Of a stretch of DNA of 64,000 bases, positions 2 to 30,769 are shown in pieces. Under the pieces are notes generated by a model. That model did not search any database. It saw only the letters and a program-made list of their open reading frames with translations, and was not told the DNA's origin. Each line of letters begins with the position of its first letter. Positions within the stretch are counted from its first letter, which is position 1. Both the position numbers and the translations under genes were made by a program. This DNA comes from the human T2T-CHM13v2.0 reference genome, Homo sapiens, in the NCBI RefSeq assembly GCF_009914755.1, contig NC_060938.1; one strand, given 5' to 3'.

Positions 2-2365
2 GTCTTGGGAGATTATGAGCGGTCCCTCAGCCCTGACTCCTCAAGATTCATGCCTGCCTCACCCAGCTTCTCCCTCTCCCCTCCCAGAAACTCAGACCCA
101 AGGGGCAGCTCCTCACCAGGGATGTGGAAGTCCTCTACATCATCCCGCAGGGCTTCACCACTCTCACATCCGTCATCAACAGAATTCCACAACTTTACGT
201 TTCCCTTTCCTAATCAAGCAGGACAGTCACTCATGTCATTGTGTTCTCCTGTGACCTCCTCTGGAGATTCTTCACAGTCACCTCATTCATCAATAATATA
301 CCATATGTTCTTATTGCCATCATCCAGCAGCTCACCCCCAGCCACCCATGACTCTCCTGTCTGTCCCAGCTACTCTCCAACTACGCCCAGATTTCAGCGG
401 GAGTCTGTACCCCACACCCCAGAAACACCTACAAACTCACAGACCTCAGTGAGATCCTCGCCAGTCTCTCTCACGTCTTCACCCCCAGCCCTTACGGACC
501 CTCCAGTCTGTCCCAGCTACTCTCCAACCACGCCCACATTTCAGCGCGGGTCAGTTCCAGAAACCCAGGGATCACCACCAAGCCCACCGCTTTCACTGAG
601 TTACTCCCCAGTCTCTAGCACGTCTTTATCTCCAACCCTCAGGGACTCGCCTGTCTGTCCCAGCTACTCTCCAAACACGCCCACACTTCAGCGGGAGTCC
701 GTTGCAGGCACCCAGAAGTCACCACCAAACTCACCAATTTCACTGCGTTACTCCCCAGTCTCTCTCATGTCTTCACCATCCCTCAGGGACTCTCCCGTCT
801 GTCCCAGCTACTCTCCAACCACGCCCACATTTCAGCTGGAGTCAGTTCCAGGCACCCCGGAATCACCACCAAACTCACCAATTTCACTCAGTTACTCCCC
901 AGTCTCTAGCACGTCTTTATCTCCAACCCTCAGGGACTCTCCTGTGTGTCCCAGCTACTCTCCAACCACGCCCACACTTCAGCGGGAGTCAGTTCCAGGC
1001 ACCCAGGAATCACCACCAAACTCACCAATTTCACTCAATTACTCTCCAGTCTCTCTCGTGTCTTCACCAGCCCTCAGGGACTCTCCTGTCTGTCCCAGCT
1101 ACTCTACAACCACGCCCACATTTCAGCTGGAGTCAGTTCCAGGCACCCCGGAGTCACCACCAAACTCACCAGTTTCACTCAGTTACTCCCCGGTCTCTCT
1201 CATGTCTTCACCCCCAGCCCTCAGGGACTCTCCTGTGCGTCCCAGCTACTCTCCAACCATGCCCAGATTCCAGCGGGAGTCAGTTCCAGGCACCCATGTA
1301 TCACCACCAAACTCAGCAGTTTCACTGAGTTACTCCCCAGTCTCTCTCATGTCTTCACCCCCAGACCCCTGGGACTCTCCTGTCTGTCCCAGCTACTCTC
1401 CCACCACGCCCAGATTTCAGCGGGAGTCAGCCTCCCACACTCCGGAATCAGATACAGACTCACAGACTTCACTGAACTCCTCCCTGGTCTCTCTCAGGTC
1501 TTTGCCCTCATCCCACAGGGACTCTTGTGTCTCTTTCAGCTACTCTCAAAACTTCTCTAGATTCCAGCTGGAGTCAGTTCCAGGCACCCACGATACACCA
1601 CCGAACTCACGAATTTCACTGACTTACGCCCCAGTCTCCCTCATGTTCTCACCCCCAGCCCTCAGGGACTCTTCTGTCTCTCTCAGCTACTCTCCAACCA
1701 TCTCCAGATTTCACCTGGAGTCAGCTTCCCACACCCTGGAATCACCTGCAAACTCACGGACCTTACTGCAACCATCCCCCATTTCTTTCACCTCTTCACC
1801 CCCTGCCTTCAGGGACTCTCCTGGGTCTCCCAGCTTCTCTCCAGCCTTCCCCAGATTTCTGCCACAGTCAGCCCCAGGCACCCAGGACAACCCTAGACAC
1901 TCACAGGCCTCACCAGACTATCTCCCTATGACCTGTACCTATACAGGGATGGCTCCCACGCATCCCTCAGTGACCCCAAACCCATCTCCACTTACACTCA
2001 GGCACTCCCAGGGCCTGACAGCTACTCCCCGTTATTGTCCTTCAGTTCGAAGCCCTGGCCAATCTACTAGCCCACATGACGCAGTTACCTGGCCATTTCT
2101 CCACGGTTCCCGGGAGGGCCCCACACCCAGCCGCACAAGAGCCCCTCCTGCATTCCGTCCTCACACGCAGGCCTGTCCATCTACTTGCTACTGTCACACT
2201 CTTGCCAGCAGAAGAGGCCCCTGTAATGGCCGATATCACCACCCAGTCTATCCTCACCCCACAGCTGTGCAGCGGGAACCCCCTGCTGGCCCACGTGGCT
2301 GCCACAGCCCATGCTGGCACGACGCTCCAGCAGGTCGGCGTCCCTGCGGGCCAAACTACCGGTGA
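2..2365 (+). CDS. Ser/Pro-rich 49-aa-repeat protein with CTD-like YSPTTP motifs, copy 1 (5' end cut off by the window edge)
   Basis: Open frame matching aa ~208-993 of the other copies; ends at TGA 2363-2365. The true ATG lies upstream of the window. Confidence 0.55.
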   Translation, partial: VLGDYERSLSPDSSRFMPASPSFSLSPPRNSDPRGSSSPGMWKSSTSSRRASPLSHPSSTEFHNFTFPFPNQAGQSLMSLCSPVTSSGDSSQSPHSSIIYHMFLLPSSSSSPPATHDSPVCPSYSPTTPRFQRESVPHTPETPTNSQTSVRSSPVSLTSSPPALTDPPVCPSYSPTTPTFQRGSVPETQGSPPSPPLSLSYSPVSSTSLSPTLRDSPVCPSYSPNTPTLQRESVAGTQKSPPNSPISLRYSPVSLMSSPSLRDSPVCPSYSPTTPTFQLESVPGTPESPPNSPISLSYSPVSSTSLSPTLRDSPVCPSYSPTTPTLQRESVPGTQESPPNSPISLNYSPVSLVSSPALRDSPVCPSYSTTTPTFQLESVPGTPESPPNSPVSLSYSPVSLMSSPPALRDSPVRPSYSPTMPRFQRESVPGTHVSPPNSAVSLSYSPVSLMSSPPDPWDSPVCPSYSPTTPRFQRESASHTPESDTDSQTSLNSSLVSLRSLPSSHRDSCVSFSYSQNFSRFQLESVPGTHDTPPNSRISLTYAPVSLMFSPPALRDSSVSLSYSPTISRFHLESASHTLESPANSRTLLQPSPISFTSSPPAFRDSPGSPSFSPAFPRFLPQSAPGTQDNPRHSQASPDYLPMTCTYTGMAPTHPSVTPNPSPLTLRHSQGLTATPRYCPSVRSPGQSTSPHDAVTWPFLHGSREGPTPSRTRAPPAFRPHTQACPSTCYCHTLASRRGPCNGRYHHPVYPHPTAVQREPPAGPRGCHSPCWHDAPAGRRPCGPNYR
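330..1930 (+). repeat. 147-bp tandem satellite (ACRO1-type) core in unit 1; recurs inside every ORF copy
   Basis: The CAGCTACTCTCC-type motif has its TAC/TTC codon at 371, 518, 665, 809, 956, 1100, 1247, 1394, 1541, 1688 and 1835 (spacing 147 or 144). The 147-bp period and 6-kb composite context match ACRO1 as I recall it. Confidence 0.88.
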
Positions 2366-4791: not shown

Positions 4792-4802
4792 TGATTGGAT
4801 TA
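4792..4802 (-). promoter_or_regulatory. DUX4/DUX-family consensus site TAATCCAATCA (TGATTGGATTA on +), one per unit
   Basis: Exact match to TAAYYYAATCA; also at 11080, 17356, 23632, 29909, 36200, 42488, 48784, 55085 and 61374. Confidence 0.5.
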
Positions 4803-5269: not shown

Positions 5270-5450
5270 CCCTTTCCGCTGCTAGGCTGCGCCCGAGGCA
5301 ATTTAAACCCACCCTGGCTGGCCTGTACTCAGATCTTCGCGGAGCGGATCAGCGGCCGGAGCGTTTGGCGGACTCTGCGTGGACTTGGAGCTCACAGCGT
5401 CTTGCGACTTGGAAGCGGATTCAGAGGACAGGACAGAACACTTGGACAAG
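5270..5450 (+). promoter_or_regulatory. Putative core promoter and CpG-rich non-coding first exon
   Basis: (A/T)ATTTAAA at 5300, Inr-consensus TCAGATC with its A at 5331 (31 bp apart), a dense CpG cluster at 5275-5420, and donor-like CAA|GTGAAT at 5450. Confidence 0.5.
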
Positions 5451-5456
5451 TGAATC

Positions 5457-5486
<30 letters not shown>
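5457..5486. repeat. (TCTG)n microsatellite, 6-8 units depending on copy
   Basis: Directly visible; 7 units here, 6 near 30575, 8 near 49449 (one unit variant) and 55750. Confidence 0.92.
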
Positions 5487-5487
<1 letters not shown>

Positions 5488-5536
5488 CATTGGTTGGTTG
5501 ATTTCCATTTTCTTAAGGGGCACATACCTCACACCG

Positions 5537-5595
5537 CACACACACAAACACACACACGCACACACACACACACACGCACACACACGCACACACAC
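5537..5595. repeat. Interrupted (CA)n microsatellite just upstream of each ATG
   Basis: Directly visible; recurs in every unit. Confidence 0.92.
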
Positions 5596-5656
5596 TCCTT
5601 CCTTCTGCGAGTTAGAACATTAGTAGGGGCCCCTGGGAGCTGCAGGTTTCCTAAAC

Positions 5657-8638
5657 ATGTCTGCACCTAAGAACAGTAGGGTCTTGTCTGGCTCTTCTTA
5701 TGAACGGTCCCCCAGCCCGGACTCCCCAAGGTCCATGCGAGCCTCACCCAGCTTCTCCCTCTCCCCTCTCAGAAACTCACGCTTAAGGGGAAGCTCCTCA
5801 CCAGGGATCCGGAGCTACCATTCACCATCCCCTAGGGCTTCACCACACTCACCTCTGTCATCACCAGAATCCCACAAGCTCCCATTTCCCTGTCCTCACC
5901 GTGATGGGCAATCAATAAAGCCATTGGGCTCTCCCGTGTCCTCCTCTGAGGAATCCTCAGAGTCCCCACGTTCATCAATAATATACCACATGTTCTTACT
6001 GCCATCACCCAGCAGCTCACCCCCAGCTCTCGGGGGGTCTCCTGTGTCTCCCAGCTACTCTCCAAACAACCCCAGATTTCAGCTGCGGTCAGCCCCCCAC
6101 ACCAAGGAATCACCTACAAACTCACGAGCCTCACTTTTCTCCACCCCTGTGTCTTTCATCTCTTCACCCCCAGGCCTCAGGGACTCTCCTGTGGCTCCCA
6201 GTTACTCTCCAGCCATCCCCAGGTTCCTGCGGGAGTCAGCCCCATACACCCAGGAGTCCCCCAGAGACTCACAAGTCTTGGGAGTTTATAAGCGGTCCCT
6301 CAGCCCTGACTCCTCAAGATTCATGCCTGCCTCACCCAGCTCCTCCCTCTCCCCTCCCAGAAACTCAGACCCAAGGGGCAGCTCCTCACCAGGGATGTGG
6401 AAGTCCTCTACATCATCCCGCAGGGCTTCACCACTCTCACATCCGTCATCAACAGAATTTCACAACTTTACGTTTCCCTTTCCTAACCAAGCAGGACAAT
6501 CACTCATGTCATTGTGTTCTCCCGTGACCTCCTCTGGAGATTCTTCACAGTCACCTCATTCATCAATAATATACCATATGTTCTTACTGCCATCATCCAG
6601 CAGCTCACCCCCAGCCACCCATGACTCTCCTGTCTGTCCCAGCTACTCTCCAACTACGCCCAGATTTCAGCGGGAGTCTGTACCCCACACCCCAGAAACA
6701 CCTACAAACTCACAGACCTCAGTGAGATCCTCGCCAGTCTCTCTCACGTCTTCACCCCCAGCCCTTACGGACCCTCCAGTCTGTCCCAGCTGCTCTCCAA
6801 CCACGCCCACATTTCAGCGCGGGTCAGTTCCAGGAACCCAGGGATCACCTCCAAGCCCACCGCTTTCACTGAGTTACTCCCCAGTCTCTAGCACGTCTTT
6901 ATCTCCAACCCTCAGGGACTCGCCTGTCTGTCCCAGCTACTCTCCAAACACGCCCACACTTCAGCGGGAGTCCGTTGCAGGCACCCAGAAGTCACCACCA
7001 AACTCACCAATTTCACTGCGTTACTCCCCAGTCTCTCTCATGTCTTCACCATCCCTCAGGGACTCTCCCGTCTGTCCCAGCTACTCTCCAACCACGCCCA
7101 CATTTCAGCTGGAGTCAGTTCCAGGCACCCCGGAATCACCACCAAACTCACCAATTTCACTCAGTTACTCCCCAGTCTCTAGCACGTCTTTATCTCCAAC
7201 CCTCAGGGACTCTCCTGTGTGTCCCAGCTACTCTCCAACCACGCCCACACTTCAGTGGGAGTCAGTTCCAGGCACCCAGGAATCACCACCAAACTCACCA
7301 ATTTCACTCAATTACTCTCCAGTCTCTCTCGTGTCTTCACCAGCCCTCAGGGACTCTCCTGTCTGTCCCAGCTACTCTACAACCACGCCCACATTTCAGC
7401 TGGAGTCAGTTCCAGGCACCCCGGAGTCACCACCAAACTCACCAGTTTCACTCAGTTACTCCTCGGTCTCTCTCATGTCTTCACCCCCAGCCCTCAGGGA
7501 CTCTCCTGTGCGTCCCAGCTACTCTCCAACCATGCCCAGATTCCAGCGGGAGTCAGTTCCAGGCACCCATGTATCACCACCAAACTCAGCAGTTTCACTG
7601 AGTTACTCCCCAGTCTCTCTCATGTCTTCACCCCCAGACCCCTGGGACTCTCCTGTCTGTCCCAGCTACTCTCCCACCACGCCCAGATTTCAGCGGCAGT
7701 CAGCCTCCCACACTCCGGAATCAGATACAGACTCACAGACTTCACTGAACTCCTCCCTGGTCTCTCTCAGGTCTTTGCCCTCATCCCACAGGGACTCTTG
7801 TGTCTCTTTCAGCTACTCTCAAAACTTCTCTAGATTCCAGCTGGAGTCAGTTCCAGGCACCCACGATACACCACCGAACTCACGAATTTCACTGACTTAC
7901 GCCCCAGTCTCCCTCATGTTCTCACCCCCAGCCCTCAGGGACTCTTCTGTCTCTCTCAGCTACTCTCCAACCATCTCCAGATTTCACCTGGAGTCAGCTT
8001 CCCACACCCTGGAATCACCTGCAAACTCACGGACCTTACTGCAACCATCCCCCATTTCTTTCACCTCTTCACCCCCTGCCTTCAGGGACTCTCCTGGGTC
8101 TCCCAGCTTCTCTCCAGCCTTCCCCAGATTTCTGCCACAGTCAGCCCCAGGCACCCAGGACAACCCTAGACACTCACAGGCCTCACCAGACTATCTCCCT
8201 ATGACCTGTACCTATACAGGGATGGCTCCCACGCATCCCTCAGTGACCCCAAACCCATCTCCACTTACACTCAGGCACTCCCAGGGCCTGACAGCTACTC
8301 CCCGTTATTGTCCTTCAGTTCGAAGCCCTGGCCAATCTACTAGCCCACATGACGCAGTTACCTGGCCATTTCTCCACGGTTCCCGGGAGGGCCCCACACC
8401 CAGCCGCACAAGAGCCCCTCCTGCATTCCGTCCTCACACGCAGGCCTGTCCATCTACTTGCTACTGTCACACTCTTGCCAGCAGAAGAGGCCCCTGTAAT
8501 GGCCGATATCACCACCCAGTCTATCCTCACCCCACAGCTGTGCAGCGGGAACCCCCTGCTGGCCCACGTGGCTGCCACAGCCCATGCTGGCACGACGCTC
8601 CAGCAGGTCGGCGTCCCTGCGGGCCAAACTACCGGTGA
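5657..8638 (+). CDS. 993-aa Ser/Pro-rich repeat protein (ACRO1-encoded, Pol II CTD-like motifs), copy 2
   Basis: Uninterrupted 2982-bp ORF; ATG in AAACATGT context; monomer length changes are multiples of 3. Confidence 0.6.
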   Translation: MSAPKNSRVLSGSSYERSPSPDSPRSMRASPSFSLSPLRNSRLRGSSSPGIRSYHSPSPRASPHSPLSSPESHKLPFPCPHRDGQSIKPLGSPVSSSEESSESPRSSIIYHMFLLPSPSSSPPALGGSPVSPSYSPNNPRFQLRSAPHTKESPTNSRASLFSTPVSFISSPPGLRDSPVAPSYSPAIPRFLRESAPYTQESPRDSQVLGVYKRSLSPDSSRFMPASPSSSLSPPRNSDPRGSSSPGMWKSSTSSRRASPLSHPSSTEFHNFTFPFPNQAGQSLMSLCSPVTSSGDSSQSPHSSIIYHMFLLPSSSSSPPATHDSPVCPSYSPTTPRFQRESVPHTPETPTNSQTSVRSSPVSLTSSPPALTDPPVCPSCSPTTPTFQRGSVPGTQGSPPSPPLSLSYSPVSSTSLSPTLRDSPVCPSYSPNTPTLQRESVAGTQKSPPNSPISLRYSPVSLMSSPSLRDSPVCPSYSPTTPTFQLESVPGTPESPPNSPISLSYSPVSSTSLSPTLRDSPVCPSYSPTTPTLQWESVPGTQESPPNSPISLNYSPVSLVSSPALRDSPVCPSYSTTTPTFQLESVPGTPESPPNSPVSLSYSSVSLMSSPPALRDSPVRPSYSPTMPRFQRESVPGTHVSPPNSAVSLSYSPVSLMSSPPDPWDSPVCPSYSPTTPRFQRQSASHTPESDTDSQTSLNSSLVSLRSLPSSHRDSCVSFSYSQNFSRFQLESVPGTHDTPPNSRISLTYAPVSLMFSPPALRDSSVSLSYSPTISRFHLESASHTLESPANSRTLLQPSPISFTSSPPAFRDSPGSPSFSPAFPRFLPQSAPGTQDNPRHSQASPDYLPMTCTYTGMAPTHPSVTPNPSPLTLRHSQGLTATPRYCPSVRSPGQSTSPHDAVTWPFLHGSREGPTPSRTRAPPAFRPHTQACPSTCYCHTLASRRGPCNGRYHHPVYPHPTAVQREPPAGPRGCHSPCWHDAPAGRRPCGPNYR
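6020..8200 (+). repeat. 147-bp ACRO1-type monomer array in unit 2 (complete example, including diverged 5' monomers)
   Basis: SYSP Tyr codons fall at aa 134, 183, 330, 379, 428 and onward, in 49-aa (147-bp) phase. Confidence 0.85.
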
Positions 8639-11587
8639 CATGTCTAGCGTCACCCTCCTTCCTGGCAGTGACACTGTTGATGTGAACCCCAATTTCACAT
8701 CTGTCATTTGTAAATAGGACCATTTTCCCTTTTCGCTCTCCCTTCCATTCACAGGGCTTTTCATTCTCTCTGTTACTGCCTCCGTTTCAGATATTTACTC
8801 ACCTTTTTCTCTCTCACTATGTCTGCCGTGGGCTCCATGAGAGTGCGCCACATAAGATTCCCCCATTAAAAGTCATGAATTGAGTGGCTTTTAGTATACC
8901 TGTGGTTGTGCACATTCAAATTTAATTCGCATTTCATTGTAGAACGTCTTATCACTCCCGGCCAGAGAAAAACCCTGTAGACATTAGTCACTCCTCATTC
9001 TGTCTCAAACCCTCTCCCTCACCCGCAGCCCTAGGTAGCAACTACCTAGTGCGATCAATCCCATATGCATAGATTACCATATTGTGGACATTTCCTATAA
9101 GCGGAATTGCACAATAGGGGAGCTGTTATGACTGACATAACACGTAACACAATATTTTCAAGATTCGTCCACATTGTAGGCTTACCCACAGGGGGAAACC
9201 ATTTTTTTGGGGGCTTTTAGTAACACCGGTGTTTTCTCCTTCGTTACGTCCTTCTTTCCTTCCTTCCTTCCTTCCTTCCTTCCTTCCTTCCTGACTTCCT
9301 TCTTTCCTTCCCTCCTTCCTCCTATTTCTCTCTTACTCCTTCTGCCCTCTCTCTTTCCTATGCCTTAGGTGCATCCCACATTCTGCGTTTTTTTGGGGAA
9401 ATCCTCGACAGGTGCAGGAAAATTGTGTTATTGTAACTATTTACCGTTATCTCTCTTTCACGGCTCTCCATCAGTTGTGAATATCTATTGGTTTATCCCA
9501 AGTCTCTAAGCATATTTTCATTAGGTAAACCTGTTTTTCCTTATACAGCTGTTTCTGGAGTATAGGGTCGCATACTCATAAACCCAGTGTAACTCAGAAA
9601 CGCATCTAATATTCCAGTAAACCCATCATAACGTTGAAAAATCGTAAATCAAACCATCATAAGTCACGGTTTGTCCGTGGATATGGGCCTCATCAATTCC
9701 ATTGTATTCAGTAATGCTGTACACCATTAACAATGGCAGACTGATTGGGAGTGGATATTGATAGCATTATAAAAGTCAGTTATTAGAGGGATACTTCTTT
9801 AACCTGACTGAAGAACTGATCTAATGGCTTTAGTACAGTGCATGATTATGTGCGATGTTTTGAGACAGAGTAGTACAATTGTGAATGAAATTTTATGGCT
9901 TTTTTTTCACTTAGTAGGAACCATTGTGTGTGGAAAAGTGAGAAAATGGCTTTCTGCTGTAGGGTCTGGCATTCATTGTAGATGTAAGCTGATTTTTCTG
10001 TGAGCAAATCTTATTCAATAAAATACTACTCTTTATACTAAAAAACAAAAACAGTGGTGATGTGTGGTCATTATCCTCAACAAACTTATCCAGGGAAAGA
10101 AAACCAAACGCCACAACTCACTTATAATGGGAGCTGAAAAATGAGATCCCATGGACACAGGAAGGGGAACAACACACACTGGGGCCTTCCGGGAGACAGA
10201 GCGTTAAGAAAAACAGCTACTGCATGCTGGGCTTAATACCTAGGTGATGGGTTGACAGGTGCAGCAAACCACCATGGCACACGTTTACCTTAGTAACAAA
10301 TCTGCACATCCTGCACATATACCCCAGAACTTAGGAACGAAACGAAACAAAAGACAACGAAAAAGCAACAGCAAAACGCTAAAGGCAAAATAAAGTTTCA
10401 AACTGAGAAAGTGACAGACCAAAGTCTGGTTCAAATCATGGATCCCAGCCCAGGTGCCATAAGGTCAGGATAAAGGATGTGATTACATATTGTCAATAAG
10501 ACATGCAGCAAATGACCAGAATGATTATTCTCAACATATATGTGTCTTCTAATTCAATGGTGACGCTATCTACCGGGACATAGCATTAGATTCCAAAGGG
10601 CCGAGACCCGCCAGACAGGCCTCCCACACTAATAACAATGGGAAGCCCTACGTTGCTTTACCTGTGCTTCTCAGCCACTGGCTATAAATCAGGTTGCCAC
10701 CACTCCCAGATTTAGTTGCATTCATTTGCTGGAAGAGCTCACAGCACGCACGGAAACACTTACATTTGCCGTTGTATTTTAGCGGACATTGCACAAAGTT
10801 CAGAAATAAATGTGGGGCCCGGCATGTGGGGAGGGGCGCACTACCTTCCAGGAAGTGCTATCCAGAAGCTCTCTGAACCCAGTCCTTTTGGGTTTTGATG
10901 GAGACCTCATTCTATAGGCATGATGGGTTAAACCATAGGCTATTGGTGATCAACTCCACCTGGGGCTCTCCACCCTCCCTGGAAATTGGGGTTGAGGCTT
11001 TGCCATCCTCAGTCTGACTAAAAGAATTTACCCAAACGGAATTTTAAAACAGATGAGCATAACTGGAATCTTAATTAGATGATTGGATTATCTGGAGCCA
11101 CACCTTGATATTCCTAACCCGAGCACCCTCATCCAACGAATGCTCCACCCAACTGGCTCCCAAGTCTCTACGTGGTTCCAGAGCAAAAGGATGTTGATAC
11201 AACGCATATCTCCACCTTTTCTTCCAAGTCTTTTCGCTTACACGGAAAGACTTCTTCAACTGCCATGCATCAGGGTCAGGGGGAGGTCTTGTTACAACAC
11301 AGATCTGCGGATCTCCGGCGTTTGACTGTGGCAAGGATGCTGCTGGTGTCAAAACCACAACGTGGGAACCACAGAACCACTAGTGGGTTTTCAGTGTTTC
11401 AGTGCATACAATTCCTAATATATCTGGCTAAGAAAACTTGTAAGTTCTTAGATTGTCCCAAAGGTGGCGCACGAAATCAAAGCAGGAGAACAGTTTCCTA
11501 CGAGGTGTAGCCTGGGAAAGTTGGGGGTGACTGATGGAAAGGAGGAGTGAAGCTCCACCCTTTCCGCTGCTAGGCTGCGCCCGAGGC

Positions 11588-24496: not shown

Positions 24497-27478
24497 ATGT
24501 CTGCACCTAAGAACAGTAGGGTCTTGTCTGGCTCTTCTTATGAACGGTCCCCCAGCCCGGACTCCCCAAGGTCCATGCGAGCCTCACCCAGCTTCTCCCT
24601 CTCCCCTCTCAGAAACTCAGGCTTAAGGGGAAGCTCCTCACCAGGGATCGGGAGCTACCATTCACCATCCCCTAGGGCTTCACCACACTCACCTCTGTCA
24701 TCACCAGAATCCCACAAGCTCCCATTTCCCTGTCCTCACCGTGATGGGCAATCAATAAAGCCATTGGGCTCTCCCGTGTCCTCCTCTGAGGAATCCTCAG
24801 AGTCCCCACGTTCATCAATAATATACCACATGTTCTTACTGCCATCACCCAGCAGCTCACCCCCAGCTCTCGGGGGGTCTCCTGTGTCTCCCAGCTACTC
24901 TCCAAACAACCCCAGATTTCAGCTGCGGTCAGCCCCCCACACCAAGGAATCACCTACAAACTCACCAGCCTCACGCTGCTCCACCCCTGTGTCTTTCATC
25001 TCTTCACCCCCAGGCCTCAGGGACCCTCCTGTGGCTCCCAGTTACTCTCCAGCCATCCCCAGGTTCCTGCGCGAGTCAGCCCCATACACCCAGGAGTCCC
25101 CCAGAGACTCACAGGTCTTGGGAGATTATGAGCGGTCCCTCAGCCCTGACTCCTCAAGATTCATGCCTGCCTCACCCAGCTTCTCCCTCTCCCCTCCCAG
25201 AAACTCAGACCCAAGGGGCAGCTCCTCACCAGGGATGTGGAAGTCCTCTACATCATCCCGCAGGGCTTCACCACTCTCACATCCGTCATCAACAGAATTC
25301 CACAACTTTACGTTTCCCTTTCCTAACCAAGCAGGACAGTCACTCATGTCATTGTGTTCTCCCGTGACCTCCTCTGGAGATTCTTCACAGTCACCTCATT
25401 CATCAATAATATACCATATGTTCTTACTGCCATCATCCAGCAGCTCACCCCCAGCCACCCATGACTCTCCTGTCTGTCCCAGCTACTCTCCAACTACGCC
25501 CAGATTTCAGCGGGAGTCTCTACCCCACACCCCAGAAACACCTACAAACTCACAGACCTCAGTGAGATCCTCGCCAGTCTCTCTCACGTCTTCACCCCCA
25601 GCCCTTACGGACCCTCCAGTCTGTCCCAGCTACTCTCCAACCACGCCCACATTTCAGCGCGGGTCAGTTCCAGGAACCCAGGGATCACCACCAAGCCCAC
25701 CGCTTTCACTGAGTTACTCCCCAGTCTCTAGCACGTCTTTATCTCCAACCCTCAGGGACTCGCCTGTCTGTCCCAGCTACTCTCCAAACACGCCCACACT
25801 TCAGCGGGAGTCCGTTGCAGGCACCCAGAAGTCACCACCAAACTCACCAATTTCACTGCGTTACTCCCCAGTCTCTCTCATGTCTTCACCATCCCTCAGG
25901 GACTCTCCCGTCTGTCCCAGCTACTCTCCAACCACGCCCACATTTCAGCTGGAGTCAGTTCCAGGCACCCCGGAATCACCACCAAACTCACCAATTTCAC
26001 TCAGTTACTCCCCAGTCTCTAGCACGTCTTTATCTCCAACCCTCAGGGACTCTCCTGTGTGTCCCAGCTACTCTCCAACCACGCCCACACTTCAGCGGGA
26101 GTCAGTTCCAGGCACCCAGGAATCACCACCAAACTCACCAATTTCACTCAATTACTCTCCAGTCTCTCTCGTGTCTTCACCAGCCCTCAGGGACTCTCCT
26201 GTCTGTCCCAGCTACTCTACAACCACGCCCACATTTCAGCTGGAGTCAGTTCCAGGCACCCCGGAGTCACCACCAAACTCACCAGTTTCACTCAGTTACT
26301 CCTCGGTCTCTCTCATGTCTTCACCCCCAGCCCTCAGGGACTCTCCTGTGCGTCCCAGCTACTCTCCAACCATGCCCAGATTCCAGCGGGAGTCAGTTCC
26401 AGGCACCCATGTATCACCACCAAACTCAGCAGTTTCACTGAGTTACTCCCCAGTCTCTCTCATGTCTTCACCCCCAGACCCCTGGGACTCTCCTGTCTGT
26501 CCCAGCTACTCTCCCACCACGCCCAGATTTCAGCGGCAGTCAGCCTCCCACACTCCGGAATCAGATACAGACTCACAGACTTCACTGAACTCCTCCCTGG
26601 TCTCTCTCAGGTCTTTGCCCTCATCCCACAGGGACTCTTGTGTCTCTTTCAGCTACTCTCAAAACTTCTCTAGATTCCAGCTGGAGTCAGTTCCAGGCAC
26701 CCACGATACACCACCGAACTCACGAATTTCACTGACTTACGCCCCAGTCTCCCTCATGTTCTCACCCCCAGCCCTCAGGGACTCTTCTGGCTCTCTCAGC
26801 TACTCTCCAACCATCTCCAGATTTCACCTGGAGTCAGCTTCCCACACCCTGGAATCACCTGCAAACTCACGGACCTTACTGCAACCATCCCCCATTTCTT
26901 TCACCTCTTCACCCCCTGCCTTCAGGGACTCTCCTGGGTCTCCCAGCTTCTCTCCAGCCTTCCCCAGATTTCTGCCACAGTCAGCCCCAGGCACCCAGGA
27001 CAACCCTAGACACTCACAGGCCTCACCAGACTATCTCCCTATGACCTGTACCTATACAGGGATGGCTCCCACGCATCCCTCAGTGACCCCAAACCCATCT
27101 CCACTTACACTCAGGCACTCCCAGGGCCTGACAGCTACTCCCCGTTATTGTCCTTCAGTTCGAAGCCCTGGCCAATCTACTAGCCCACATGACGCAGTTA
27201 CCTGGCCATTTCTCCACGGTTCCCGGGAGGGCCCCACACCCAGCCGCACAAGAGCCCCTCCTGCATTCCGTCCTCACACGCAGGCCTGTCCATCTACTTG
27301 CTACTGTCACACTCTTGCCAGCAGAAGAGGCCCCTGTAATGGCCGATATCACCACCCAGTCTATCCTCACCCCACAGCTGTGCAGCGGGAACCCCCTGCT
27401 GGCCCACGTGGCTGCCACAGCCCATGCTGGCACGACGCTCCAGCAGGTCGGCGTCCCTGCGGGCCAAACTACCGGTGA
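24497..27478 (+). CDS. 993-aa Ser/Pro-rich repeat protein, copy 5
   Basis: Intact 2982-bp ORF. Confidence 0.6.
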   Translation: MSAPKNSRVLSGSSYERSPSPDSPRSMRASPSFSLSPLRNSGLRGSSSPGIGSYHSPSPRASPHSPLSSPESHKLPFPCPHRDGQSIKPLGSPVSSSEESSESPRSSIIYHMFLLPSPSSSPPALGGSPVSPSYSPNNPRFQLRSAPHTKESPTNSPASRCSTPVSFISSPPGLRDPPVAPSYSPAIPRFLRESAPYTQESPRDSQVLGDYERSLSPDSSRFMPASPSFSLSPPRNSDPRGSSSPGMWKSSTSSRRASPLSHPSSTEFHNFTFPFPNQAGQSLMSLCSPVTSSGDSSQSPHSSIIYHMFLLPSSSSSPPATHDSPVCPSYSPTTPRFQRESLPHTPETPTNSQTSVRSSPVSLTSSPPALTDPPVCPSYSPTTPTFQRGSVPGTQGSPPSPPLSLSYSPVSSTSLSPTLRDSPVCPSYSPNTPTLQRESVAGTQKSPPNSPISLRYSPVSLMSSPSLRDSPVCPSYSPTTPTFQLESVPGTPESPPNSPISLSYSPVSSTSLSPTLRDSPVCPSYSPTTPTLQRESVPGTQESPPNSPISLNYSPVSLVSSPALRDSPVCPSYSTTTPTFQLESVPGTPESPPNSPVSLSYSSVSLMSSPPALRDSPVRPSYSPTMPRFQRESVPGTHVSPPNSAVSLSYSPVSLMSSPPDPWDSPVCPSYSPTTPRFQRQSASHTPESDTDSQTSLNSSLVSLRSLPSSHRDSCVSFSYSQNFSRFQLESVPGTHDTPPNSRISLTYAPVSLMFSPPALRDSSGSLSYSPTISRFHLESASHTLESPANSRTLLQPSPISFTSSPPAFRDSPGSPSFSPAFPRFLPQSAPGTQDNPRHSQASPDYLPMTCTYTGMAPTHPSVTPNPSPLTLRHSQGLTATPRYCPSVRSPGQSTSPHDAVTWPFLHGSREGPTPSRTRAPPAFRPHTQACPSTCYCHTLASRRGPCNGRYHHPVYPHPTAVQREPPAGPRGCHSPCWHDAPAGRRPCGPNYR

Positions 27479-30400: not shown

Positions 30401-30769
30401 AGGCTGCGGCCGAGGCAATTTAAACCCACCCTGGCTGGCCTGTACTCAGATCTTCGCGGAGCGGATCAGCGGCCGGAGCGTTTGGCGGACTCTGCGTGGA
30501 CTTGGAGCTCACAGCGTCTTGCGACTTGGAAGCGGATTCAGAGGACAGGACAGAACACTTGGACAAGTGAATCTCTGTCTGTCTGTCTGTCTGTCTGTCT
30601 CATTGGTTGGTTGATTTCCATTTTCTTAAGGGGCACATACCTCACACCGCACACACACAAACACACACACGCACACACACACACACACGCACACACACGC
30701 ACACACACTCCTTCCTTCTGCGAGTTAGAACATTAGTAGGGGCCCCTGGGAGCTGCAGGTTTCCTAAAC

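What the first reader, a model, noticed from the sequence alone, without database searches (positions are those of the whole stretch)
6600..8130. Protein repeats resemble the RNA Pol II CTD (YSPTTP versus YSPTSPS) - candidate CTD decoy or condensate protein
Seen: the central 49-aa repeats (e.g. LRDSPVCPSYSPTTPTFQLESVPGTPESPPNSPISLSYSPVSSTSLSPT) each carry two YSP motifs. One, YSPTTP, keeps Y1-S2-P3-T4-x-P6 of the RPB1 heptad with a phosphorylatable Thr at position 5, and there are many SP/TP sites. Established: the CTD Y1/S2P3/S5P6 positions are recognised by CDK7/9/12, PIN1, CTD-interacting-domain proteins and CTD phosphatases. I recall that in-silico similarity of the ACRO1 monomer to the CTD has been noted in work on Pol II-binding RNA aptamers, but not a full-length gene. 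Inference: a disordered, heavily phosphorylated protein that could titrate CTD kinases or readers, or partition into transcription condensates.
Basis: partly seen in the sequence, partly recalled or inferred. Interest (0 to 1): 0.82.

Follow-up and report, generated by a model that had tools for sequence, protein, structure and literature searches.

The report
ACRO1 satellite ORF with CTD-like repeats
The "protein repeats" are the in-frame translation of the human ACRO1 satellite inside a 6.3-kb acrocentric macrosatellite unit; their likeness to the RNA polymerase II tail is real but limited and already published, and whether the ~1000-codon reading frame makes a protein is still open.

Summary
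The repeats exist. There are 13 ACRO1 monomers of 147 or 144 bp (49 or 48 codons), all in one frame of a 993-codon ATG-to-stop ORF (5657-8638). The ORF recurs in every 6.28-kb ACRO/ACRE unit.

The CTD likeness exceeds composition: 22 of 49 residues match in a single heptad register, which 0 of 100,000 shuffles reached. It is limited, though. There is no canonical heptad and no Pfam PF05001 match, and the 1,970-residue RPB1 chains score only E 3.9-9.5. Boots et al. 2020 already published the likeness, and a 2025 preprint calls the array's content a "putative protein coding gene".

New here:
- 116 of 150 scored genomic copies keep an open frame of at least 1000 codons.
- A compact 358-aa copy on chr2q24, a marmoset model and a deeper 355-aa homolog keep the same start, order and end.
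- Stops and frameshifts are far rarer than neutral decay predicts.
- The unit looks like a gene: a DUX4-type site, TATA plus Inr, an ATG-free leader and ATTAAA.

Against a protein, N/S ratios are about 0.7-1.2 everywhere and codon positions are flat. The YSPTxP motif survives in only 1 of 5 marmoset slots.

Verdict: a known element. Coding status is roughly even odds. The CTD-decoy idea is unsupported.

The parts
4792..4802 (-). DUX4-type motif TAATCCAATCA, about 535 bp upstream of the putative start site and 855 bp upstream of the ATG
   Evidence: 10 matches in the window, one per unit, against 0.24 expected. The units are copies, so this is effectively one independent occurrence. It is present in 26 of 27 fetched units from other arrays.
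5300..5335 (+). TATA-like box (5300-5307) with an Inr-like TCAGATC whose A lies at 5331, 31 nt downstream; a putative core promoter
   Evidence: Read directly from the sequence. This unit reads AATTTAAA, while 24 of 27 units elsewhere read TATTTAAA. The promoter consensus is recalled; function is inferred, not tested.
5331..5656 (+). Putative 5' leader without any ATG, containing (TCTG)n at 5457-5487 and (CA)n at 5537-5595
   Evidence: The nearest upstream ATG lies 346-435 nt before the ORF ATG among the distances listed for 23 of the 27 units.
5657..8638 (+). ORF of 993 codons plus stop (stop-to-stop frame 5627-8638, 1003 codons)
   Evidence: It is open in 7 of 9 complete units of the window. 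The ATG is at the same place in all 34 extracted ORF regions, drawn from 33 distinct fetched copies.
5723..6016 (+). X1 block, 98 codons, S-rich and not ACRO1
   Evidence: X1-M1-M2 aligns to X2-M3-M4 without gaps.
6017..6310 (+). ACRO1 monomers M1-M2, the short ACRO1 array of the unit
   Evidence: nhmmer E 1e-34 to 5e-38.
6311..6604 (+). X2 block, a paralogue of X1
   Evidence: The X1-M1-M2 and X2-M3-M4 blocks show 157 differences in 588 bp, with no indel.
6605..8215 (+). ACRO1 monomers M3-M13, the main array. Nine are 147 bp and two (M5, M7) are 144 bp.
   Evidence: No ACRO1 monomer lies outside the ORF in the unit.
8216..8635 (+). Unique C-terminal 140 codons, Cys/His-rich, with the block CPST.YCHTLA.RR invariant in 7 of 7 aligned homologs
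8865..8870 (+). ATTAAA hexamer 226 nt after the stop codon; a putative poly(A) signal
   Evidence: It is the first hexamer after the stop in 27 of 27 units, at offset 226 or 225. Function is inferred.

Best explanation
Shown. The repeats are the translated 147-bp ACRO1 satellite. Thirteen monomers lie in frame inside a 993-codon ORF. That ORF is carried by every 6.28-kb unit of the primate-specific ACRO (ACRE) macrosatellite on distal 14p. Each monomer consists of seven degenerate 21-bp sub-repeats, and in the open frame these read as CTD-like heptads of the form S-P-x-x-P-S-Y.

Inferred. Each unit is a gene-like transcription unit with a DUX4-type site, TATA plus Inr, an ATG-free leader, the ORF and ATTAAA. 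It is switched on at the cleavage stage or by DUX4, as published for ACRO1 RNA. The ORF descends from a compact gene of about 300-360 aa with the order N-terminus, X block, one or two monomers, C-terminus. That form is still seen on chr2q24 and in the distant homolog P0096. Its internal 49-aa module then expanded into the 'satellite'.

The frame has been kept free of stops and frameshifts much longer than neutral decay allows. The amino-acid sequence, in contrast, drifts almost neutrally. The most likely product is therefore a basic, S/P-rich, disordered protein that is, or until recently was, selected for integrity and bulk composition. It does not appear to be selected for the CTD-like motif. 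A specific CTD-decoy role is not supported.
For: Identity of the element:
- 147-bp period.
- Units 98.4-99.5% identical with no gaps in the ORF.
- ACRO is described as a 6-kb composite of ACRO1, L1PA10, MER21B and L1MB8 on distal acrocentric arms (preprint 10.64898/2025.12.22.696095, passages read).

Heptad build:
- 22 of 49 matches, reached by 0 of 100,000 shuffles.
- 21-bp self-identity of 67 of 147, reached by 0 of 20,000 shuffles.

ORF upkeep:
- 0 internal stops in frame 0 against 14 and 17 in the other + frames.
- Among 171 distinct monomer variants, 0 real stops arose in frame 0 where 6.7 were expected. Frame +2, whose consensus is also open, gained 5 where 4.7 were expected.
- The X1M1M2 and X2M3M4 blocks differ at 157 of 588 bases with no indel and no stop.
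- 116 of 150 scored genomic copies have open frames of at least 1000 codons. Lengths differ by whole monomers or codons: 1003, 1004, 1052, 1101, 1149, 1248.
- 31 of 34 extracted ORF regions have lengths divisible by 3.
- Indels number 2 in 2.28 kb of ORF against 12 in about 3.0 kb of non-microsatellite intergenic DNA; none of those 12 is a multiple of 3.
- The marmoset nr/UniRef model P0003 (832 aa) is colinear from Met to the C-terminus at 565 of 818 identical residues.
- P0096 (355 aa) is colinear at 160 of 308 identical residues.
- The chr2q24 copy keeps a 369-codon open frame at 4.9-6.0% divergence. Its 98%-identical relative P0019 is also open.

N/S ratios: frame 0 has the lowest ratio of the three frames in 5 of 7 comparisons, at 0.67-0.91. 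It is not the lowest.

Gene-like signals.

Expression in print:
- ACRO1 RNA peaks at the 4-cell stage (PMC6545021, abstract and passages).
- DUX4 raises ACRO1 transcripts (PMC8990217 and PMC11467316, passages).
- ACRO1 is hypomethylated in spermatogonial stem cells and sperm (PMC5832720, passage).
Against: No codon-level constraint was found:
- Between units of the window, nonsynonymous/synonymous/stop counts are 45/15/2 against 42.5/17.1/2.3 expected, and codon positions are 20/21/21.
- Monomer diversity by codon position is 0.242/0.28/0.29.
- The chr2 copy against the array gives pN/pS 0.93. ORF divergence of 4.9-6.0% equals the 5.4% of the upstream non-coding flank.
- Distal against proximal arrays gives 0.83.

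Broken copies are common:
- 34 of 150 scored copies are truncated.
- Several dispersed copies (chr2:132.7 Mb, chr19, chr13, chr15, chr20, chr4) carry 1-4 TGA stops in the last 190 codons.
- Both Old World monkey 'RPB1-like' models (Papio, 282 aa; Piliocolobus, 291 aa) leave the frame after about 250 aa.
- The marmoset model reads about 65 residues in another frame and could contain model-made introns.

Other points:
- RefSeq annotates no gene in the window (hub note).
- Boots 2020 found no stable ACRO1 transcript in HeLa. Inserts of 1 and 1.4 kb almost abolished reporter RNA in cis.
- My stop expectation over-predicts by about a third in controls, 45 observed against 66 expected.
- I chose many fetched copies because they were open, so the counts are biased towards intact copies.
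- Interlocus gene conversion can restore ORFs, a caveat raised in the acrocentric preprint.
Confidence: 0.45

Rival explanations
1. The element is a non-coding satellite. Its function, if any, lies in the DNA or RNA, for example C/A-rich Pol II-binding aptamers that stall the polymerase and silence the array, or heterochromatin and nucleolar association. The long frame is then a by-product of a 147-bp (49-codon) monomer, a C-rich strand and recent homogenisation, or the relic of a gene that is now dead.
For: - N/S ratios are 0.67-1.21 with flat codon positions.
- The most conserved block of the monomer (columns 6-21) is conserved equally at codon positions 1, 2 and 3: 0.913, 0.861 and 0.889.
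- Stop variants between units occur at the neutral rate, 2 observed against 2.3 expected.
- 34 of 150 copies are truncated.
- No gene is annotated in the window.
- Boots 2020 reports 1029 sense against 1 antisense aptamer mappings, block of elongation in cis, and no stable HeLa transcript.
Against: - Frame 0 alone lacks stops: 0 against 14 and 17, and 0 against 6.7 expected among monomer variants. That gives P of about 0.001, or about 0.01 after calibration.
- There are no frameshifts across blocks that differ by about 27% (157 of 588 bases).
- Indels are roughly four-fold depleted relative to intergenic DNA.
- Colinear open frames exist in marmoset, in P0096 and on chr2q24.
- The promoter-like element, the ATG-free leader and the poly(A) hexamer are retained in 24-27 of 27 units.
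Confidence: 0.4
2. The ORF product is a CTD mimic that titrates CTD kinases, phosphatases, PIN1 or CID proteins, or that partitions into Pol II condensates.
For: - Heptad-phased likeness of 22 of 49.
- All 13 PDB sequences found by phmmer at E<=10 are RPB1 chains, the best at E 4.1e-6.
- Each good monomer offers one stretch S-Y-S-P-T-T-P-R-F.
- There are 99 S/T-P sites.
- Automatic annotation names the monkey homologs 'RPB1(-like)'.
- Transcription is reported at genome activation.
Against: - There are 0 canonical heptads and only 4 YSPT[ST]P in 993 aa.
- PF05001 gives no match at E<=10. None of the 17 genome-wide PF05001 matches lies in an ACRO array, with 150 of 629 candidates scored.
- The PDB scores carry about 100 bits of bias correction, and the 1,970-residue RPB1 chains score only E 3.9-9.5.
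- Marmoset has 5 YSP and 1 YSPT.P in 832 aa, and only 1 of its 5 recognisable first-motif slots is YSPTTP.
- The second YSP ranks 23rd of 49 for conservation.
- No basic cluster resembling a nuclear localisation signal was found by a simple pattern.
- Translation is not shown.
Confidence: 0.08
3. This is an origin hypothesis, compatible with either function. The 21-bp sub-repeat descends from captured POLR2A CTD-coding DNA, as Boots et al. speculated.
For: - The POLR2A CTD exon (L041) has 51 Y.P..P. heptads. Ser7 is mostly AGC there, while Ser2 and Ser5 use TCN.
- ACRO1 uses AGC/AGT for both Ser at heptad position 7, AGG/AGA for Arg at that position, and TCN at positions 2 and 5. Only 37 of 234 Ser codons in the ORF are AGY.
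- The consensus monomer fits the POLR2A nucleotide profile better than all but 13-14 of 5000 synonymous recodings, z about 2.6.
- blastn finds 92 nt at 69.6% identity, E 1.8e-6. This is low-complexity sequence and the search had no shuffle control.
Against: - The excess disappears when the S/L/R codon family is held fixed: z 0.26, with 2051 of 5000 recodings as good. The signal therefore rests on one codon-family pattern, by my estimate about a 1-in-7 coincidence.
- In-register nucleotide identity is only about 50%, and 16.0 of 49 at third positions. That is too diverged for a primate-specific capture evolving neutrally.
- The 1,970-residue RPB1 chains are weaker protein matches than the shorter RPB1 chains at the top of the list.
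- The X blocks and the C-terminus have no RPB1 counterpart.
Confidence: 0.2

Closest known systems
ACRO1 satellite within the ACRO / ACRE composite macrosatellite (Boots et al. 2020; great-ape acrocentric preprint 2025-26)
   Same: 147-bp monomer, roughly 6-kb unit with one long and one short ACRO1 array, primate-specific, homogenised arrays on distal acrocentric short arms, and a CTD-like in-silico translation (23 of 49 in print, 22 of 49 here).
   Different: Nothing differs in kind; this window is that element. The papers I read do not describe the ATG-to-stop frame, its genome-wide state, the compact chr2q24 form or the promoter-like signals.
RNA polymerase II RPB1 C-terminal domain (Pfam PF05001, heptad YSPTSPS)
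   Same: Seven-residue phase, S-P at heptad positions 2-3, P at 6, S at 7 and Y at 1 in the best sub-repeats, and the same serine codon-family pattern (AGY at position 7, TCN at 2 and 5).
   Different: No canonical heptad is present, and only about one good heptad-and-a-half occurs per 49 residues. PF05001 does not match, no polymerase core is attached, the product is basic (net +21), and the motif is poorly kept in marmoset.
Macrosatellites that carry an ORF in every unit, such as D4Z4/DUX4 (others, e.g. CT47, TAF11L, USP17L/RS447, recalled from memory)
   Same: A kilobase-scale tandem unit, each with its own promoter-like region and a complete ORF. Copy number is variable and the arrays are heterochromatic in somatic cells. 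RNA is reported in cleavage-stage embryos.
   Different: Those ORFs encode folded, recognisable domains and have protein evidence. This one is low-complexity, matches no Pfam family (the single listed hit, Adeno_shaft at E 3.4, is not significant), has N/S near 1 and has no protein evidence.

Membership tests
ACRO1 satellite / ACRO (ACRE) composite repeat | 147-bp tandem monomer | tested here: met
   TRF gives period 147 and 10.6 copies. Thirteen monomers of 147 or 144 bp were mapped.
ACRO1 satellite / ACRO (ACRE) composite repeat | Higher-order unit of about 6 kb with a long (1.3-2.4 kb) and a short (about 256 bp) ACRO1 array | tested here: met
   Unit spacing is 6273-6301 bp. M3-M13 span 1.6 kb and M1-M2 span 294 bp. 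The description is in Boots 2020, section read.
ACRO1 satellite / ACRO (ACRE) composite repeat | Homogenised arrays on acrocentric short arms | tested here: met
   The window lies on chr14 at 124-188 kb (hub note). Arrays occur on chr13, 14, 15, 21 and 22, plus chr3 near 95.8 Mb.
RPB1 CTD heptad repeat (PF05001) | Match to the Pfam profile RNA_pol_Rpb1_R at its cut-off | tested here: not met
   hmmscan of the 1003-aa frame lists no PF05001 hit at E<=10. The six-frame genome search gives 17 matches on chr17, chr16 and chr1 and none in ACRO arrays, with 150 of 629 candidates scored.
RPB1 CTD heptad repeat (PF05001) | Runs of canonical YSPTSPS heptads | tested here: not met
   0 YSPTSPS and 2 Y[ST]P[ST][ST]P[ST] in 993 aa. 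The POLR2A exon L041 has 21 canonical heptads among 51.
RPB1 CTD heptad repeat (PF05001) | Seven-residue periodicity in CTD register | tested here: met
   22 of 49 in one register, reached by 0 of 100,000 shuffles; 13 of 13 monomers share that register.
RPB1 CTD heptad repeat (PF05001) | Attached to the RPB1 catalytic core | tested here: not met
   No Pfam domain of any kind is found in the frame except a non-significant Adeno_shaft hit at E 3.4.
Protein-coding macrosatellite (D4Z4/DUX4 type) | A complete ORF in most units | tested here: met
   7 of 9 complete units in the window, and 116 of 150 scored copies genome-wide.
Protein-coding macrosatellite (D4Z4/DUX4 type) | Purifying selection on the encoded protein | tested here: inconclusive
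   N/S ratios are 0.67-1.21. Stops and frameshifts are nevertheless depleted, and the frame is retained in marmoset, P0096 and chr2q24.
Protein-coding macrosatellite (D4Z4/DUX4 type) | Transcript and protein evidence | not testable with these tools
   Only published ACRO1 RNA signals were available. I could not reach any proteomic or Ribo-seq data.

The most novel reading that the evidence does not exclude
ACRO arrays may be the largest protein-coding macrosatellite family in the human genome, with at least 116 intact frames of about 1000 codons next to the nucleolar organisers. Under this reading DUX4 fires them at the 4-8-cell stage. They produce a basic, S/P-rich protein with CTD-phased repeats that engages S/T-P-directed CTD kinases, PIN1 or Pol II/nucleolar condensates during embryonic genome activation. 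The 'satellite' would be the expanded internal repeat of an older gene of about 350 aa, still visible on chr2q24.
Probability: 0.1. Interest if true: 0.9.

Novelty: already known. Interest (0 to 1): 0.5.

Why it matters
ACRO is reported to be the repeat most specific to great-ape acrocentric short arms, and its RNA appears at human embryonic genome activation and in DUX4-expressing (FSHD) cells. If the frame is translated, hundreds of gene copies would encode an uncharacterised disordered protein at the moment transcription starts. That would parallel DUX4 in D4Z4. If the frame is not translated, the case shows how a 49-codon satellite monomer can look like a gene. It has already produced misleading 'RPB1-like' names in monkey annotations and in a contaminated Plasmodium assembly. 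Either way, the CTD likeness itself is not a new observation.

Tried and rejected
Searches that found nothing:
- Pfam on the whole frame gave only a non-significant Adeno_shaft hit at E 3.4.
- Rfam over one unit at gathering threshold gave 0 matches.
- Two scans of prokaryotic genome contigs for contaminant copies, with the human ORF and then with P0096, gave no confirmed locus.
- A parent gene for the unique C-terminus was sought among 1.84 billion cluster representatives. Only 14 short proteins matched, with 41-96% identity among the 14 listed. The six I fetched looked ACRO-derived, so no parent family was found.

Ideas tested and set aside:
- ACRO1 monomers outside the ORF as a natural control: there are none in the unit.
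- A DNA-level descent test against the POLR2A exon: the excess over synonymous recodings vanishes once codon families are fixed.
- A secreted mucin-like protein was considered and dropped. The N-terminus has no hydrophobic stretch by eye; no tool was run for this.

Tools that did not answer:
- Structure prediction for a disorder check was not accepted at either attempt. Disorder rests on composition alone.

Literature searches:
- 'ACRO1' found 59 papers, of which 25 were listed.
- 'ACRO1' with 'DUX4', with 'open reading frame', and with 'Hendrickson' and 'cleavage-stage' each returned papers that I followed up.
- 'ACRO composite' with 'acrocentric' found 0 papers, and 'RPB1-like' with 'primate' found 0.
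- None of the papers I opened analyses the ORF or proposes a CTD decoy. Subscription-only papers, including Hendrickson 2017 and the T2T repeat paper, and bioRxiv supplements were not seen. That includes Supplementary Figure 11 of PMC12746033, which may name the gene model.


Full report
WHAT IS THERE

The window is a head-to-tail array of a unit about 6.28 kb long. A 3012-base probe recurs every 6273-6301 bases at 98.4-99.5% identity, without a single gap. Tandem Repeats Finder reports a 147-bp repeat at 6605-8160, with 10.6 copies and 79% matches.

The stop-to-stop frame at 5627-8638 has 1003 codons. Its first ATG is at codon 11, window position 5657. I mapped the frame as follows:
- about 30 leading residues
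- block X1, 98 aa
- monomers M1-M2
- block X2, a paralogue of X1
- monomers M3-M13, with M5 and M7 one codon short
- a unique, Cys/His-rich C-terminus of 140 aa

A profile of the monomers finds no further ACRO1 copy elsewhere in the unit.

The element is the ACRO1 satellite inside the 'ACRE' of Boots et al. 2020 (PMC7714431; abstract and sections 7, 12 and 24 read). The great-ape acrocentric preprint calls it the 'ACRO' composite (passages read).

CHECK OF THE OBSERVATION

The quoted repeat is present. Counts in the frame are 14 YSP, 5 YSPT.P, 4 YSPT[ST]P, 99 S/T-P and no YSPTSPS. Only 4 of 13 monomers carry two YSP motifs, so 'each' is overstated.

The CTD likeness is more than composition:
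- The consensus monomer splits into seven heptads that match (YSPTSPS)n at 22 of 49 positions in one ungapped register.
- None of 100,000 shuffles reached 22. All 13 monomers choose the same register. The other two frames give 11 and 7.
- The DNA itself has a 21-bp sub-period: 67 of 147 identities at shift 21, reached by 0 of 20,000 shuffles.
- A phmmer search of PDB sequences returned 13 sequences at E<=10, and all 13 are RPB1. The best is E 4.1e-6, but with about 100 bits of bias correction.

The likeness is limited:
- The 1,970-residue RPB1 chains (mammalian, by my recollection of those entries) score only E 3.9-9.5.
- Pfam PF05001 does not match the frame at E<=10.
- A six-frame PF05001 search of the whole genome gave 17 matches. 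They lie in the POLR2A exon on chr17 and at sites on chr16 and chr1. None is in an ACRO array, with 150 of 629 candidates scored.

WHAT IS ALREADY IN PRINT

Boots et al. reported 23 of 49 identities, the heptad-like repetition, and the speculation that ACRO1 derives from CTD mRNA. They found no stable ACRO1 transcript in HeLa. They showed that ACRO1 inserts block Pol II elongation in cis in the sense orientation. Their text never mentions an open reading frame or a gene.

[quoted passage not shown] Its supplementary figure could not be seen.

[quoted passage not shown] It is reported to rise after DUX4 expression (PMC8990217, PMC11467316 and 10.64898/2025.12.22.696056, passages). ACRO1 is also hypomethylated in spermatogonial stem cells and sperm (PMC5832720).

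No paper I opened proposes a CTD decoy or analyses the frame.

IS THE FRAME A GENE? EVIDENCE FOR UPKEEP OF THE FRAME

1. Stops by frame. Frame 0 has no internal stop in 1003 codons. The other two + frames have 14 and 17, and dinucleotide shuffles never exceed 547 codons.
2. Stops among monomer variants. The consensus monomer is open in frames 0 and +2. Among 171 distinct monomer variants, frame +2 gained 5 stops where 4.7 were expected. Frame 0 gained none that is real where 6.7 were expected. My expectation over-predicts by about a third in control frames and intergenic DNA, 45 observed against 66 expected. Even so, about 4.6 expected against 0 observed gives P of about 0.01.
3. Old internal duplication. 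X1-M1-M2 and X2-M3-M4 differ at 157 of 588 bases, yet align without any indel.
4. Genome-wide state. The C-terminal 140 aa found 303 candidates, of which 150 were scored. Of those, 116 sit in open frames of at least 1000 codons. They lie in arrays on chr3, 13, 14, 15, 21 and 22, and their lengths differ by whole monomers or single codons.
5. Fetched copies. In the 34 extracted ORF regions (33 distinct copies), the ATG is always in place and 31 lengths are multiples of three. I found 2 indel events in 2.28 kb of unambiguously alignable ORF. Non-microsatellite intergenic DNA showed 12 events in about 3.0 kb, none a multiple of three. I had picked many of these copies because they were open, so the counts lean towards intactness.
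6. Relatives.
   - A marmoset protein in nr/UniRef, automatically named RPB1 (P0003, 832 aa), is colinear from the same Met to the C-terminus at 565 of 818 identities. About 65 residues are read in another frame.
   - An unnamed 355-aa protein (P0096) is colinear at 160 of 308 identities, with one X block and one monomer.
   - A solitary copy on chr2q24 (L042) has an intact 369-codon frame, 358 aa from Met, with the order X, M1, an M2/M13 hybrid, C-terminus. It differs from the chr14 unit at 4.9-6.0% of sites.
   - P0019, 98% identical to that chr2q24 copy, is open too.
   - The block CPST.YCHTLA.RR is invariant in all 7 aligned homologs.

By rough inference, neutral drift to 69% or 52% amino-acid identity should have produced around ten stops and as many frameshifts. 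This figure comes from the aa identities, from a stop target of 2.5-3.7% of substitutions, and from about 0.03 indels per substitution.

IS THE FRAME A GENE? EVIDENCE AGAINST, OR FOR NO PROTEIN-LEVEL CONSTRAINT

- Between the window's units, nonsynonymous/synonymous/stop counts are 45/15/2 against 42.5/17.1/2.3 expected. Codon positions are 20/21/21.
- Monomer diversity by codon position is 0.242/0.28/0.29.
- N/S ratios in frame 0 are 0.67, 0.81, 0.91, 0.72, 0.83, 0.93 and 1.21. Control frames give 0.80-1.43. Frame 0 is the lowest in 5 of 7 comparisons, but never low.
- The chr2 ORF has diverged as much as its upstream flank, 4.9-6.0% against 5.4%. Between the distal and proximal array clades the ORF is less diverged than intergenic DNA, 1.96% against 3.09%.
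- 34 of 150 copies are truncated.
- Dispersed copies carry 1-4 TGA stops.
- Both Old World monkey models leave the frame after about 250 residues.
- RefSeq annotates nothing in the window.
- Gene conversion among acrocentric arms can restore frames.

GENE-LIKE SURROUNDINGS (SEQUENCE-LEVEL INFERENCE)

- One DUX4-type motif per unit lies at 4792-4802. There are 10 in the window against 0.24 expected, which is effectively one independent hit. It is present in 26 of 27 units elsewhere.
- A TATA-like box at 5300-5307 reads TATTTAAA in 24 of 27 other units. An Inr-like TCAGATC lies 31 nt downstream.
- No ATG occurs for 346-435 nt upstream of the ORF ATG.
- The -3 position of the start codon is A.
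- ATTAAA lies 226 nt (225 in one unit) after the stop in 27 of 27 units.

CTD-DECOY IDEA

The best CTD-like slot (columns 14-16) lies in the most conserved part of the monomer, ranking 2nd of 49. In that block third codon positions are as conserved as first and second (0.889 against 0.913 and 0.861). This points to recent shared ancestry or to nucleotide-level constraint rather than protein constraint. The second YSP is only average, ranking 23rd of 49.

Marmoset has 5 YSP and 1 YSPT.P in 832 aa, and only 1 of its 5 recognisable first-motif slots is YSPTTP. Nothing here tests binding, phosphorylation or localisation.

ORIGIN

The POLR2A CTD exon (L041, found through PF05001) has 51 heptads. 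Ser7 is mostly AGC, and Ser2 and Ser5 use TCN.

ACRO1 shows the same codon-family pattern. It uses AGC/AGT and AGG/AGA at heptad position 7 and TCN at positions 2 and 5, although only 37 of 234 Ser codons in the ORF are AGY. This makes the consensus fit the POLR2A nucleotide profile better than all but 13-14 of 5000 synonymous recodings. The excess vanishes when codon families are held fixed, with 2051 of 5000 recodings as good.

In-register identity is about 50% overall and 16.0 of 49 at third positions. Descent from POLR2A is therefore possible but weakly supported.

VERDICT

The element and its CTD likeness are known. The frame is not a compositional accident and has been kept open for a long time, but it shows no amino-acid constraint. 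I put translation into a maintained protein at about even odds with a non-coding reading. I put a true CTD-mimic function near 0.1.

TOOLS THAT DID NOT ANSWER

Structure prediction was not accepting jobs.

Noticed in passing
proteins P0011 and P0022: Two proteins annotated in a Plasmodium ovale wallikeri assembly are 93% and 90% identical to the human ACRO ORF. Their names are 'hypothetical protein / PIR Superfamily Protein' and 'RPB1, partial'. This looks like host (human) contamination carrying a misleading name.
   Followed up: no
G000:C2:161738800-161741600 (L042; ORF at 1001..2110 +): A solitary compact copy lies in euchromatic chr2q24. It has the same upstream promoter-like region and an intact 369-codon frame with only two monomers. 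Homology to the unit ends 53 bp after the stop. Just downstream, a minus-strand frame (1787..2332) reads, to my eye, like an Alu element.
   Followed up: partly
G000:C14 distal array; window units at 30740 and 62209: The same disabling variants recur at fixed spacings in the chr14 distal array. The 810-codon type occurs at C14:157329, 188798 and 213911. The 330-codon type occurs at 163624 and 220202. The 892-codon type occurs at 25462 and 81988. Spacings of about 56.5 kb (9 units), or 5 plus 4 units, suggest a super-repeat above the 6.28-kb unit.
   Followed up: no
G000:C16:30912683-30912931 (-) and G000:C1:215870425-215870460 (-): PF05001 (CTD heptad) also matches a 536-codon open frame on chr16 and a short frame on chr1. 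These are other CTD-like heptad stretches in the genome.
   Followed up: no
dispersed copies listed (chr2:132.7 Mb, chr19:47.23/47.28 Mb, chr13:9.35 Mb, chr15:4.71 Mb, chr20:29.99 Mb, chr4:49.24-49.29 Mb): In-frame stops in the last 190 codons of most dispersed copies are TGA, 1-4 per copy. This would fit decay of CGA codons at methylated CpG. Three array-edge copies carry a TAG instead.
   Followed up: no
window 9237-9320 and homologous sites (intergenic alignment columns 613-756): A (TTCC)n/(TCCT)n microsatellite downstream of the ORF is the main source of unit-length variation between arrays. The (TCTG)n and (CA)n tracts in the putative 5' leader also vary in length.
   Followed up: no
G000:C22 distal array (72-226 kb): Units with 1003-codon and 1052-codon frames mostly alternate with a spacing of about 12.7 kb. 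This suggests a two-unit higher-order repeat differing by one monomer.
   Followed up: no
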